Below are positions 1,537 through 16,737 of a DNA stretch of 20,869 nt, piece by piece (position 1 is the first letter of the stretch; every line of letters starts with the position of its first letter). The notes under the pieces are model-generated. The model had not been told where the DNA came from. It saw only the letters and a program-made list of their open reading frames with translations, and did no database searches. The DNA lies in contig NW_021824043.1 of the NCBI RefSeq assembly GCF_006345805.1, positions 1 through 20,869 of the forward strand, in the 5' to 3' direction. The DNA comes from Octopus sinensis (taxonomy: Eukaryota). The position numbers and the translations under genes were made by a program.

Positions 1537-1704
1537 AAGGGAACTGGTATTCTAATACTCACAATGAATCTGTCTCTGTTAAATATAAAGGGCCTAGTGT
1601 AACGCGAAGTGTCCCCTTAAGGTGTGTTTTCCATCCTAATTATGTGATCAAATTGTCGCTAAATAGGGTTCGATTGCCCATGATAAGAAATCCGGATGTA
1701 TAAT

Positions 1705-1890
1705 TTTTGAGATGAGGATTTCTGTACGTTATTTACATTATTTACATTGGATGGATATGTGTCCTCATCTTGTTTGTTGTTACCACAACGTTTCGGCAGG
1801 TTTACTCTCCAGCCTTCATCAGGTGTCCAGGTAGAATTTTGAACCCAAACCTGGGTTTTCATTCCTAACTTATGTTTTTGCTGATGTTGT
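1705..1890 (-). mobile_element. Short repeat family C carrying a hammerhead motif (Penelope-like terminal-repeat derivative)
   Basis: Homologous to 16148-16327; adjoins (TTA)n; contains the HHR at 1782-1827. Confidence 0.75.
1782..1827 (-). ncRNA. Minimal type I hammerhead ribozyme motif (family C)
   Basis: Minus strand: GACAC-CUGAUGA-A-GGCUGG-AGAGUAAA-CCUGCC-GAAA-CG-UU^GUGGU. Core intact, stem II 5/6 bp, palindromic stem III (ACGU), GUU triplet, stem I 4/5 pairs. Confidence 0.75.
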
Positions 1891-1898: not shown

Positions 1899-1963
<65 letters not shown>

Positions 1964-1964
1964 A

Positions 1965-2022
<58 letters not shown>
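1899..2022. repeat. (TTA)n microsatellite
   Basis: Direct reading; one short interruption near 1960. Confidence 0.97.
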
Positions 2023-2334: not shown

Positions 2335-2526
2335 AGTCGCCATGATAGATCGATAGCCACTACACACATTTTTTTCTTTCCTTGTTTCTTTCTGTGTTCC
2401 TTTCTGTGGAAGAGCGTAGGCTCGAAACGTAATAGACTTTTTCTATTCCCAAGCGTTATACTAATACATTTGTTTGTTTTCTACACCACCTGTCTTCGTC
2501 CTTTGTTTCTTTCGTGAATTCCCCCC
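2335..2526 (+). mobile_element. Repeat family B copy 1 with variant-core hammerhead-like motif (2400-2436)
   Basis: CTTT-CTGTGGA-A-GAGC-GTAG-GCTC-GAAA-CG-TA-ATAG; homologous to 9535-9725 and to the reverse complement of 13019-13106. Confidence 0.75.
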
Positions 2527-3039: not shown

Positions 3040-3436
3040 TCTATATATATAAAACTGTAGTTGTGTGAGTGTCTGTCCCCTTCGATTTAGAATCCTAACT
3101 ACTCCCACATTTTGCGGTGCAGTTTAACCAAAACCGGGTATCTTATAGTCGTGATTCATATCGAGCCCTTCTGGGTATTAGCGCGCGTCTACGATGAGTC
3201 TACGATTTAAAAAAAAAAAATTACCACATTTTTTTCCATTTTAATGCATTTTTCGCTATTATATAAGAAGTAACTCTCTAAAAATGTCTACGAGAGTCAA
3301 CGATTTATAAAAAAATTTACCATAATTTTTTTCCATTTTAATGCATTTTTTGCTATTTTTTTGGCTATAACTCTCTAAAAATGCTTATATAGTTATTTCC
3401 CTTACAAACCCGAGCAACGCCGGGCGATACTGCTAG
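3040..3436 (+). mobile_element. Complete non-autonomous Helitron with internal ~98 bp tandem duplication
   Basis: A|TCTATATATATAAAA...CTAG|T, i.e. inserted between A and T. Subterminal hairpin CCCG(A)GC-AAC-GC-CGGG at 3409-3424, 8 nt before CTAG. Tandem units at 3187-3285 and 3286-3382. Confidence 0.88.
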
Positions 3437-4243: not shown

Positions 4244-4300
4244 AAGAAGGATATAGTATTTTGCGTTCCGAATCAGTTCTCATCCCTAGCTGGTGATTGT

Positions 4301-4345
4301 CACACGCTGATGACGGGTTACTAATCAGAAACCCGGGTCCGCGTG
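4301..4345 (+). ncRNA. Type I hammerhead ribozyme motif at the apex of a long imperfect hairpin (family E)
   Basis: CACACG-CUGAUGA-C-GGGUU-ACU-AAUCA-GAAA-CCCGGG-UC^CGCGUG: intact core, GUC triplet, palindromic ACCCGGGU stem III. Stem I extends outward to 4255/4394. Confidence 0.75.
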
Positions 4346-6273: not shown

Positions 6274-6820
6274 ATATATATATATATTATATATGTGTGT
6301 GAAATAGAAGATGAATAATCTTGTAGTAGATTAATCAAAAGTTTACCGATACTTAGTAGCAAAAATCACAGCAGTAAACAGCACGGTTGGAGGTACAACC
6401 ATATAGTGTTGCAACCGTGCGTTGGTGCGGATAATTGAAATTAAAACATTATGGTGAATTGAAGAAATGGAGCTGAACGCAGATTGAACAGAAATCGTTT
6501 TATTTCATTCTACACGTGTTTCGAAAGACACAAAATTACCAAAATCCGATTGAATAATGGGACCATATTGTGTCTTTCTCTCAGGAAGAAAAAAAGGAAA
6601 TCCGTTGGAAAAACAAAAACAGAACAGAGGCGGAGCAAAAAAAATCGAACTATGCTCCTAAGAGCCCAACGGATTCCTTTTTCTTATGAAGAGAAAAGAC
6701 ACAATATGGTCCCATTATTCAATCGGATTTGTGGTAATTGTGCCTTTCGAAACACGTGTAGAATGAAATAAACGATTTCTGTTCAATCTGCGTTCAGTCC
6801 ATTTCTTCAATTCACCAATA

Positions 6821-6877
<57 letters not shown>

Positions 6878-9534: not shown

Positions 9535-9725
9535 GTCAGTTGCTCACTAGCCACTAAACCTTTTTTTCTTCTCTGTTTCTTTCTGTTCCTTTCTGTTTAA
9601 GAGCGTAGGTTCGAAACGTAAAAGTCTTTCTCACTTCACGAGCGTTAAACTAATACATCTGTTTGTTGTTTGCAAACCCGTCTGCGTTTTTTGTTTTGTT
9701 TTAATTCTTTTGTAAATTCCAACTA
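9535..9725 (+). mobile_element. Repeat family B copy 2 with decayed hammerhead-like motif (9589-9624)
   Basis: CTTT-CTGTTTA-A-GAGC-GTAG-GTTC-GAAA-CG-TA-AAAG; colinear with 2335-2526; ends at (TA)n. Confidence 0.75.
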
Positions 9726-12264: not shown

Positions 12265-13018
12265 ACCCCCCCTAATGTGCGCGTTCCGCACTGAAGCGTG
12301 TGTAAATTCTGATAGGTTTCATTTTATTGGAACCTATAACGATTCGGAGGATTTACAGCAAAACCTAAGAGCAGAGGAAGAAGACGTCAATAATTATTTC
12401 CATCTGGAAAATATTAGAAACCGTGGCACCAAAATTTGGCATTAAACGTAGAACAATCCTTAGAATTGGCGTCATAGAAAAGAGTTAATACATGGACAAT
12501 CCCACAGACGGATGTGAACATCGTTCGGTAGCCATTTAAATGCTGTTTAGTCTGTTCTCCGACATATTGCCTCGCAATCATACAAAAATGGTGGCTAGGG
12601 GTTAGTGGTTTCATATTAATATTTTCTGTTTATTATTGGAAGGTTATGTAGTGCTTCTTCATAATTCAGATTATCCAATATCAGAAGCTTGGGAGAATAT
12701 GTAGGGATTAAGGGCTTGGGTTTATAGTTAGTCGTTAAAGAATTAATTATCAGGGAACAAATGCTAGCTCTTGAACAACTATGGAGGCCAAACGGTCACA
12801 AATATGCACGGTATTAATTTAATTAATATATATATGTATGTATGTATATATGTTTGTGTGTGCCTATACATATATACATATATCTATGTGTATGTATGAA
12901 GTTATATGTATTTAAATGTATGTAATTTGAACTGTATATATTTGTGTGTATATATGTATACATATATTTGCATGCATGTATATATATATATATATATACC
13001 TACATATATACATATATA

Positions 13019-13106
13019 GTTCAAATTTACAGAAAACAAAAGACGAAGATAGGTATAGGGACAGCAAGTAGGTGCATTAGTTTAACGCTCGGGAAGAATG
13101 AAAGAC
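13019..13106 (-). mobile_element. Repeat family B copy 3 (3' part only)
   Basis: Minus strand GTCTTTCATTCTTCCCGAGCGTTAAACTAATG...CTTCGTCTTTTGTTTTCTGTAAATTTGAAC matches 9624-9723. Confidence 0.7.
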
Positions 13107-16030: not shown

Positions 16031-16147
16031 CCAAAATAGCCAGTTGTAAATCTCAAGAACAGATCAGAGTAGTAACTCTGTTGACACGTCAAGTTATTTG
16101 CCACATGTGGCAGCTCCATGTTACTACTAATTTAATACAGTTCTATA

Positions 16148-16327
16148 TTTAAGAGATGGGGAATTATGTACATTATTTACATTAGACAGATATTTGTTCT
16201 CATCTTGTTTGTTGTTAACACAACGTGTCCCCAAGACACTTGATGAAGGCTGGAGAGTAAACCAGCCGAAACGTTGTGCTAACAACAAACAAGATGAGGA
16301 CAAATACCCGTCAAATGTAAATAATGT
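16148..16327. mobile_element. Family C foldback with hammerhead motif (16235-16280, + strand)
   Basis: Inverted arms ~16170-16226 / 16271-16327. GACAC-TTGATGA-A-GGCTGG-AGAGTAAA-CCAGCC-GAAA-CG-TT^GTGCT (C3->U, perfect 6-bp stem II). Confidence 0.8.
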
Positions 16328-16341
16328 CAATTATGTACTAC

Positions 16342-16737
16342 TTTAATCTCAGGCGGATCTTCCGCCAGCTGATTATCGGAGCAACGCTGCACCCTATATA
16401 CGCATATATATTGCCAGCGGAGGGAGTGAATCCCTACCATCTTCTAGCAGACAACAGTTTCGACCTGTCTTCAGTTGGCTCGTCTTCAGTTGCGAGTACC
16501 TGTTCGCTAGAGCGATAGCCAGGGTCCGCTTCAGCCAGCAATATATTGTAAACAAAGCGACCATCGGTCACTGATTTGCAGGATGAGCCAACCAACTCGA
16601 ACCTCAGTCATTCTCACAATAATGTTATTTGCTAGAGGACGGTAGGGGTTCGCTCCCCCTACTAGCAATGTATATTGTATATATAGAGTGCCGCGCTGCA
16701 CCGATAACCAGTGGCGAAAGATCTGCCTGGGGTTAAA
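16342..16737. mobile_element. Old diverged foldback element
   Basis: 16342-16459 is a diverged inverted repeat of 16621-16737; the inner GTTGGCTCGTC / GATGAGCCAAC also pair. Confidence 0.8.

What the first reader, a model, noticed from the sequence alone, without database searches (positions are those of the whole stretch)
1782..1827. Intact-core family C hammerhead; the two copies complement each other
Seen: this copy has an intact CUGAUGA/GAAA with one mismatch each in stems I and II. The 16235 copy has a perfect stem II but C3->U, and the 16170-16226 arm supplies GUGUU pairing with GACAC. Inference: the ancestral sequence is a fully paired HHR cleaving after GUU (between 1787 and 1786 here), with a 2-bp loopless stem III that needs dimerisation.
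Basis: partly seen in the sequence, partly recalled or inferred. Interest (0 to 1): 0.7.

Follow-up and report, generated by a model that had tools for sequence, protein, structure and literature searches.

The report
Penelope-type hammerhead in a tRNA-headed repeat
This is one worn copy, among thousands in this animal genome, of a minimal self-cutting RNA motif already known from Penelope jumping genes; here it sits in a short repeat with a tRNA-like front end that is likely pasted by Penelope enzymes, and the motif likely cuts only in pairs or with a helper protein.

Summary
A type I minimal hammerhead lies on the minus strand at 1827-1782, with an intact core, an extra A, one mismatch in each stem and a loopless ACGU palindrome. 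This is the published min-HHR of Penelope-like elements (PLEs; PMC4209133). The copy is ordinary: a 19-mer of the motif occurs 7,936 times in the genome (control 0), 5 of 30 unbiased copies are fully intact, and this one is not. The stem I mismatch is shared by 29 of 29 nearest relatives. The copies lie on opposite strands, 14.4 kb apart, so one transcript cannot hold both. The carrier is a short element with a tRNA-like head. It leaves the PLE footprint: head-to-head pairs (24 of 53 loci), a one-sided 3' tail (24 of 24 pairs) and target duplications. Across four subfamilies, 0 of 30 structured positions changed (CpG decay aside) against 26 of 78 free ones, yet inserted copies come from uncut RNA. 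Cleavage is untested and no autonomous partner was found. The scan noted a similar element before on other DNA of this genome.

The parts
1700..1886 (-). pLTR-like tail of the short element, subfamily S2; a solo copy with no head and no inverted partner
   Evidence: blastn hit 1703-1868 to a natural copy; profile hit 1837-1700, E 2e-34; linker start read; no head hit in the window; nearest to S2 rows in the tree
1823..1827 (-). hammerhead stem I, 5' strand
   Evidence: sequence
1815..1822 (-). core C3-A9 (CUGAUGA) plus the extra A between A9 and G10.1
   Evidence: sequence; the extra base is a min-HHR hallmark (PMC4209133)
1795..1814 (-). stem II (5 of 6 pairs; private U-U at 1811/1798) with an 8-nt loop
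   Evidence: fold; 27 of 29 relatives have A at 1798
1787..1794 (-). GAAA, palindromic ACGU (loopless stem III) and U17; predicted cut between 1787 and 1786
   Evidence: sequence; cleavage not tested
1782..1786 (-). stem I, 3' strand GUGGU; the G at 1783 is the subfamily state
   Evidence: 29 of 29 nearest relatives
1776..1789 (-). predicted 5-bp hairpin that covers the cut site and competes with stem I
   Evidence: MFE folds; probability of the first stem I pair 0.005 in this copy, 0.12 in an intact copy
1700..1737 (-). optional 3' extension (PLE-type tail), present in this copy; inner boundary approximate
   Evidence: two-cluster distribution of 3' ends in the family
1899..2022 (-). (AAT)n linker; in full copies it joins the tRNA-like head to the tail, here the copy stops in it
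   Evidence: TRF; family anatomy
16137..16229 (-). left, inverted arm of the second insertion; carries the long 3' tail and GUGUU but no core
16228..16335 (+). right arm of the second insertion, short 3' end, nearest to subfamily S1; hammerhead at 16235-16280 with C3 replaced by U
16125..16136 (+). left target-site duplication (12 nt, 1 mismatch)
16336..16347 (+). right target-site duplication

Best explanation
This is a decayed solo copy of a minimal type I hammerhead motif in the 3' tail of a very abundant short non-coding repeat with a tRNA-like head, which is likely transcribed by Pol III, likely pasted by the enzymes of a Penelope-like element, and whose ribozyme likely cuts only as a pair or with protein help. 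Shown: the anatomy (head with A- and B-box-like motifs, (AAT)n linker, tail of about 190 nt with the hammerhead), thousands of copies, head-to-head insertions with a one-sided tail and target duplications, four subfamilies in which the structured positions do not change, and decay of inserted copies at the rate of their flanks. Inferred: an autonomous PLE protein binds the tail and starts reverse transcription at two sites about 50-65 and 91-94 nt 3' of the cut site, one for each end of the insertion. The template is uncut RNA, because copies run across the cut site into the head. The loopless stem III and a competing hairpin keep a single RNA from cutting itself, which it must avoid or lose its promoter. 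Cutting would happen only in rare tandem transcripts, between two RNAs, or once the PLE protein has bound. This copy (U-U in stem II, no head, no tandem neighbour) is likely inert.
For: Motif features equal the PLE min-HHR of PMC4209133. 7,936 and 9,399 exact matches of two short words, controls 0; rough capture-recapture estimate about 60,000 arms from 4 of 30. Head within 450 nt in 37 of 53 loci; A-box-like motif in 50 and B-box-like motif in 55 of 83 aligned heads (rows include overlapping loci; box patterns recalled). Head-to-head pairs in 24 of 53 loci, and in 24 of 24 exactly one arm ends at +91 to +94 while the other ends at +69 or less. This is the tail signature described for PLEs (PMC3846280, PMC8557442, PMC11167929). 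Direct repeats of 10 nt or more at the ends of 15 of 22 pairs against 0 of 22 controls. S1 versus S4 majorities: 0 of 30 structured positions differ apart from 2 CpG-decay sites, against 8 of 16 free positions and 18 of 62 flank positions, Fisher p 8e-5; changes fall on N7, H17, loop II and distal stem I. In S1 the motif diverges 5.7% against 5.7% and 3.9% in the flanks. 23 of 24 copies anchored 3' of the cut extend across it and none starts at it. Intact RT plus GIY-YIG frames exist in the genome.
Against: No autonomous PLE with this tail among 38 GIY-YIG loci examined (only 150 of 5,029 candidates were scored). The head is not recognised as tRNA by Rfam, and relaxed ARAGORN calls are noisy. 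No cleavage or RNA-end data: the runs laid were contigs and their RNA status is a guess. Direct tandems are rare: same-strand neighbours in 4 of 53 loci, and only one clear two-motif tandem. In that tandem the double-hammerhead fold is predicted 9 kcal/mol above the MFE. The structured set in the Fisher test was defined from the hammerhead model, and CpG sites were set aside.
Confidence: 0.7

Rival explanations
1. Same element and same PLE mobilisation, but the motif no longer cuts in vivo. Its fold is kept because the PLE protein uses it as a landmark for binding or folding the template.
For: Inserted copies come from uncut RNA. In the anole PLE, ribozyme mutants did not impair insertion in vitro and no reads ended at the cut site (PMC11167929, passages). 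The cut triplet moved from GUA to GUU and a hairpin covers the site in S1-S3.
Against: All catalytic core bases are unchanged across four subfamilies, while changes fall on N7 and H17 and stay within cleavable triplets (GUA and GUU listed as active NUH sites in PMC3138052). That pattern is expected from selection on chemistry.
Confidence: 0.17
2. The tail is only the truncated pLTR of an autonomous PLE, and the tRNA-like head is a separate SINE that ended up next to it. There is no single PLE-driven SINE.
For: Solo truncated pLTRs with min-HHRs, including opposite-strand pairs 100-700 bp apart, are described (PMC4209133). 16 of 53 loci, and both window insertions, lack a head.
Against: Head, linker and tail are joined in a fixed order in 37 of 53 loci. 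The heads of S3 and S4 differ in step with their tails. No sampled copy leads into a PLE frame by eye.
Confidence: 0.08
3. One reading: this locus is a working ribozyme, and the two window copies make up for each other's defects.
For: The core at 1822-1787 is intact. In a mixed dimer one junction could in principle use this core with another copy's stem I 3' strand.
Against: Opposite strands, pointing apart, 14.4 kb; different subfamilies; private stem II mismatch; no head; the motif decays like its flanks; any partner in trans would be one of thousands of other copies.
Confidence: 0.03
4. The palindromic pairs are MITEs, DNA transposons with long terminal inverted repeats, and the hammerhead is a passenger.
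For: Many insertions are palindromes with target duplications.
Against: The two ends are systematically unequal (24 of 24 pairs), inner junctions are variably truncated (gaps -2 to 702 nt), and 27 of 53 loci are solo arms.
Confidence: 0.02

Closest known systems
Minimal type I hammerheads (min-HHR) in pLTRs of metazoan Penelope-like elements (Cervera and de la Pena 2014, PMC4209133; parts 1-2 of 4 read)
   Same: Core only, no loop 3, palindromic 15.2-16.2, extra base between 9 and 10.1, G10.1-C11.1, short helix I, thousands of variable mostly single copies, some opposite-strand pairs 100-700 bp apart, dimer-dependent and weak cleavage in vitro.
   Different: Here the motif rides in a non-coding element with a tRNA-like head; no flanked PLE frame was found. 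Stem II is 6 bp, against 7-8 bp reported for Schistosoma.
Insertions of endonuclease-bearing PLEs (PMC3846280, PMC8557442, PMC11167929; passages)
   Same: Inverted 5'-truncated copy head-to-head, palindrome at the junction, a 30-40 nt tail at one end only, short target duplications (8-10 bp reported; 10-16 nt repeats here), pLTRs sufficient to move unrelated sequence in trans.
   Different: No RT or endonuclease frame; a Pol III-type head instead of a pLTR promoter.
Schistosome SINE-like hammerhead repeats (Sm-alpha, Sj-alpha; seen only as summarised in PMC6765202, passages)
   Same: Pol III-type promoter followed by a hammerhead in a short, high-copy element.
   Different: Those occur in tandem and are freed by cleavage. 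These are solo or head-to-head, use a loopless minimal motif, insert uncut, and show the PLE tail.
Animal non-LTR retrozymes (PMC7229834, passages; bioRxiv 10.64898/2026.07.22.740005, part 1 of 5 and passages)
   Same: Short non-autonomous elements with a type I hammerhead, proposed to be moved by PLEs.
   Different: Retrozymes are head-to-tail tandem repeats that yield circular RNA; those characterised in PMC7229834 have canonical hammerheads. Direct tandems are rare here and element ends do not match the cut site.
Octopus tRNA-derived SINEs (Ohshima and Okada 1994; seen only as a citation in PMC4758252 and PMC10886601)
   Same: tRNA-derived high-copy short retroposons, likely in the same animal group.
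   Different: Could not compare sequences; the head may be one of those families. No hammerhead or PLE link in the passages seen.

Membership tests
PLE min-HHR | Conserved core CUGANGA, GAAA and UH | tested here: met
   1822-1816, 1794-1791, 1788-1787; unchanged in four subfamily majorities
PLE min-HHR | No loop 3; palindromic 15.2-16.2 | tested here: met
   ACGU at 1791-1788; majority state in S1-S3, CpG-decayed in S4
PLE min-HHR | Extra base between 9 and 10.1, and G10.1-C11.1 | tested here: met
   A1815; G1814-C1795
PLE min-HHR | Helix I of 4-5 bp and a long helix II | tested here: met
   majority subfamily 5 and 6 bp; this copy 4 of 5 and 5 of 6; S4 only 3 proximal pairs
PLE min-HHR | Self-cleavage as a dimer | not testable with these tools
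   only a folding estimate: the double-hammerhead fold is 9 kcal/mol above the MFE in one natural tandem
Autonomous PLE | RT plus GIY-YIG frame between pLTRs | tested here: not met
   no tblastn hit of a PLE protein in the window; none of 38 GIY-YIG loci carries this tail
PLE-mobilised insertion | Inverted 5'-truncated partner, head-to-head | tested here: met
   24 of 53 loci; window 16137-16335. Not met for the 1782 copy itself, which is solo
PLE-mobilised insertion | 30-40 nt tail on one end only | tested here: met
   24 of 24 pairs and the window pair
PLE-mobilised insertion | Short target-site duplication | tested here: met
   15 of 22 pairs with 10 nt or more, 0 of 22 controls
PLE-mobilised insertion | 3' end shared with an autonomous partner | tested here: inconclusive
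   not found, but only 38 loci from 5,029 GIY-YIG candidates were examined
tRNA-derived SINE | 5' head with Pol III A and B boxes | tested here: met
   A-like 50 and B-like 55 of 83 heads (box patterns recalled); head near 37 of 53 loci
tRNA-derived SINE | Head homologous to a tRNA | tested here: inconclusive
   no Rfam tRNA match; relaxed ARAGORN noisy; resemblance is by eye
tRNA-derived SINE | Pol III transcription | not testable with these tools
   only contigs of guessed-RNA runs were available
tRNA-derived SINE | LINE-type 3' end (A-rich or simple-repeat tail) | tested here: not met
   3' ends fall in two clusters of unique sequence; the simple repeat is internal
Non-LTR retrozyme | Head-to-tail tandem repeats with a hammerhead in each unit | tested here: not met
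   same-strand neighbours in 4 of 53 loci, one clear tandem

The most novel reading that the evidence does not exclude
A tRNA-headed SINE that is driven by Penelope rather than LINE enzymes and has kept a catalytically intact but monomer-silent hammerhead through four waves of amplification, although its cut site lies between promoter and priming site so that only uncut RNA can be copied. The ribozyme would then be a selected switch (cutting after protein binding or when two RNAs meet), and the subfamily series is a natural experiment on why PLEs carry hammerheads.
Probability: 0.5. Interest if true: 0.55.

Novelty: new variant of a known kind. Interest (0 to 1): 0.33.

Why it matters
The hammerhead itself is a known type and this copy is unremarkable. 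The carrier matters more. SINEs are normally paired with LINEs, and one that shows the strict PLE insertion footprint widens that rule. The role of hammerheads in PLEs is stated to be unclear (PMC8557442) and cleavage was dispensable in vitro (PMC11167929). Here a non-coding element of about 300 nt, with no reading frame to constrain it, kept every core base across subfamilies while free positions changed, which argues for selection on the ribozyme in source elements. It is also a small substrate for testing that with purified PLE protein.

Tried and rejected
Rfam scans found no hammerhead family and no tRNA in the head. The window repeat finder was swamped by microsatellites. I considered a type III hammerhead at the 16225-16239 hairpin with the inverted arm as stem III and rejected it: the arm leaves no unpaired H17 before stem I. 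Search for the autonomous partner: 30 GIY-YIG loci plus 8 longer stretches gave other hammerhead-like tails but not this one; a 17-nt match inside the endonuclease region (E 0.17) was treated as chance. L179 looked like a possible autonomous relative but is an older subfamily of the same short element. RNA evidence: all 24 runs listed were contigs. In the four laid, family contigs are abundant and mostly carry the paired stem I base, but RNA status is a guess and ends cannot be read; the depth fall 5' of the cut site is confounded by the query's divergence from the majority. An RNA-versus-DNA depth comparison on a majority copy remains open. A simple age order S4, S3, S2, S1, suggested by divergence and by stepwise shortening of the linker, is not confirmed by a tree on 122 columns, which places S1 nearest S4 (3 of 34 rows left out). 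Lunse et al. (small PLE hammerheads cleaving as dimers) was not held; only its title and the summary in PMC6765202 were seen. No paper supplements were opened; those of PMC4209133 and PMC13282606 may list this family.

Full report
Setting. The window is a whole 20,869-base contig of a 2.72-Gb assembly in 13,516 contigs. It is AT-rich and full of microsatellites. From size and make-up I take it to be an octopus-type animal genome; that is inference, echoed by earlier notes of the scan, and no tool named the organism.

Observation. On the minus strand, stem I 5' strand is 1827-1823, CUGAUGA 1822-1816, an extra A 1815, stem II 1814-1809 with 1800-1795 (U-U at 1811/1798), GAAA 1794-1791, then C, G, U, U (1790-1787) and GUGGU 1786-1782 with an A-G mismatch. 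The predicted cut is between 1787 and 1786. The copy at 16235-16280 has U in place of C3 and a perfect stem II, and the inverted arm beside it reads GUGUU. Rfam does not match the motif, and the copy alone folds no better than shuffles. The evidence against chance is the family: a 19-mer of the motif occurs 7,936 times and its reversed control 0 times.

The motif is a known type. Cervera and de la Pena (PMC4209133, parts 1-2 of 4 read) define the minimal hammerhead of metazoan Penelope-like elements. It has no loop 3, palindromic positions 15.2-16.2, an extra base after A9, a G10.1-C11.1 pair and a short helix I. It occurs in thousands of variable, mostly single copies, some paired on opposite strands, with no cleavage as a monomer and weak cleavage as a dimer. 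All the sequence features are met here. GUU and GUA are both listed as cleavable triplets (PMC3138052, passages).

The two copies do not complement each other. The fully paired form is real: a 21-mer ending in GUGUU occurs 4,421 times and the GUGGU version 123 times. But GUGGU is a subfamily state. All 29 nearest relatives of the window copy share it, whereas the stem II U is private (27 of 29 have A, 2 have G). Four subfamilies emerged. S1 is the majority, fully paired, with N7 either U (16 of 30) or A (9 of 30). S2 holds the 1782 copy. S3 has a longer linker and GUGGU (13 of 27) or GUGAU (7 of 27). S4 is the most diverged (9-11% from its majority, against 4-6% for S1), with GUA at the cut and only three proximal stem I pairs. 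The 16235 copy is nearest S1 and the 1782 copy nearest S2. Divergence and stepwise shortening of the linker suggest that full pairing is derived. A tree on 122 columns instead places S1 nearest S4 (31 rows, 3 left out). The order is open, but the outgroup has neither GUU nor a 5-bp stem I. Physically the copies face away from each other on opposite strands, 14.4 kb apart.

This copy is not special. Of 30 loci picked by a word outside the motif, 14 have the core at the right spacing and 5 are fully intact; the window copy fails on stem II. Four of those 30 also carry the 19-mer, giving a rough estimate of 60,000 arms, so thousands are in better shape. In S1 the motif has diverged 5.7% from its majority, against 5.7% and 3.9% in the flanks (the 3' figure includes the anchor word). 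Inserted copies decay neutrally. The 1782 copy has no head and no partner.

The carrier element. Full copies consist of a head of about 75 nt, an (AAT)n linker and a tail of about 190 nt containing the hammerhead. A head lies within 450 nt in 37 of 53 independent loci (60 loci less 7 overlaps). A-box-like and B-box-like motifs occur in 50 and 55 of 83 aligned heads (patterns recalled; rows include overlaps). Rfam does not call it tRNA, so tRNA origin is a resemblance. Of the 53 loci, 24 are head-to-head pairs within 800 nt, 27 are solo, and 4 have a same-strand neighbour, only one a clear tandem of two motifs. In 24 of 24 pairs exactly one arm ends 91-94 nt past the cut site and the other at 69 nt or less. 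Since 24 of 53 central copies are long, chance would give this about half the time per pair (about 0.5 to the 24th, my arithmetic). In one pair the short arm's hit stops at +3 and may be internally deleted. Direct repeats of 10 nt or more flank 15 of 22 pairs (21 loci plus the window; 3 complex loci left out) and 0 of 22 controls. The window's second insertion shows all of it: arms 16137-16229 and 16228-16335, tail on the left only, a small palindrome at the junction, and a 12-nt duplication. Inverted partner, one-sided 30-40 nt tail and short duplications are the described footprint of endonuclease-bearing PLEs (PMC3846280, PMC8557442, passages). The tail corresponds to two reverse-transcription start sites and is called unique to PLEs (PMC11167929, passages).

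Selection on the ribozyme, but uncut templates. Between S1 and S4 majorities, none of 30 structured positions differs apart from two CpG-decay sites, against 8 of 16 free positions in the motif and 18 of 62 in the 3' flank (Fisher p 8e-5; S1-S3 p 0.0096; S1-S2 p 0.18, not significant). The changes hit N7, H17, loop II and distal stem I. Source elements therefore kept the hammerhead. Yet the cut site lies between the head and the priming sites, and 23 of 24 copies anchored 3' of it run across it; none starts at it. Uncut RNA is the template, as found in vitro for the anole PLE, whose hammerhead cut only with protein present (PMC11167929). A loopless stem III and a hairpin over the cut site (first stem I pair probability 0.12 in an intact copy, 0.005 here) fit an RNA that must stay whole as a monomer. 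In the one natural tandem, the double-hammerhead fold is possible but predicted 9 kcal/mol above the minimum, so help from a protein is likely needed. These steps are inference.

Gaps. The genome holds intact RT plus GIY-YIG frames of 775-781 aa, but none of 38 loci examined carries this tail, out of 5,029 candidates of which 150 were scored. RNA data were contigs of runs only guessed to be RNA. They hold many family contigs, mostly with the paired stem I base, but show no ends.

Literature. Closest are the PLE min-HHR, PLE insertion structure, the schistosome Pol III plus hammerhead repeats (PMC6765202, passages) and animal retrozymes (PMC7229834, passages; bioRxiv 10.64898/2026.07.22.740005, part 1 and passages). 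I did not find a tRNA-headed, PLE-moved element in searches. An octopus repeat annotation mentions no ribozyme in its main text (PMC13282606, passages). The library is partial, and Repbase, Dfam and supplements were not seen. Earlier notes of this scan describe the same kind of element on other DNA of this genome. I reached this reading before seeing them and took from them the target-duplication test and PMC3846280; whether they concern the same sequence family I could not check.

Verdict. Observation confirmed; interpretation partly supported. The hammerhead is a known type and this copy a worn one. The tRNA-headed carrier with a strict PLE footprint and a selected but uncut ribozyme is a new variant of a known kind. 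Interest 0.33.

Noticed in passing
window 2354-2508 (+), 9548-9696 (+), 13024-13106 (-): Copies of a different repeat, 75-81% alike. The first two carry a degenerate hammerhead-like core ending in GAAACGUA; a similar stretch lies upstream of the PLE frame in L121 (about 1990-2140).
   Followed up: no
window 16497-16444 (-): Two CUGAAGA words 15 nt apart followed by a short stem and GAAAC, 110 nt from the second insertion; possibly another hammerhead-bearing stub.
   Followed up: no
window 15953-15911 (-) and 4299-4345 (+): Further CUGAUGA words with short hairpins; the first has GAAA at hammerhead spacing, the second lacks a clean GAAA after its stem.
   Followed up: partly
window 6448-6822, 998-1095, 12924-13027: Long fold-back palindromes unrelated to this family, possibly other head-to-head insertions or MITEs.
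   Followed up: no
L121:2721-5063, L122, L123:4745-7069: Uninterrupted frames of 775-781 aa with RT and C-terminal GIY-YIG and a cysteine linker; many near-identical copies, so likely recently active PLEs.
   Followed up: partly
L121:5935-5985: Near the 3' end of the 781-aa PLE family, a hammerhead-like fold whose core reads UUGAUAA, resembling the U3-A8 variant reported for Schistosoma PLEs in PMC4209133 (read by eye).
   Followed up: no
L094 and L126, about 490-630 nt after the GIY-YIG frame: A shared CUGAAGA-stem-GAAAGUAC hammerhead-like motif in the 775-aa PLE family, unrelated in sequence to this tail.
   Followed up: no
window 16225-16239: The junction of the inverted pair is a 5-bp palindrome made from stem I, and the left arm resumes at the ACGU, as if the core had been skipped between two AC words.
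   Followed up: partly
window 3187-3383: Two tandem copies of a 97-nt AT-rich unit.
   Followed up: no
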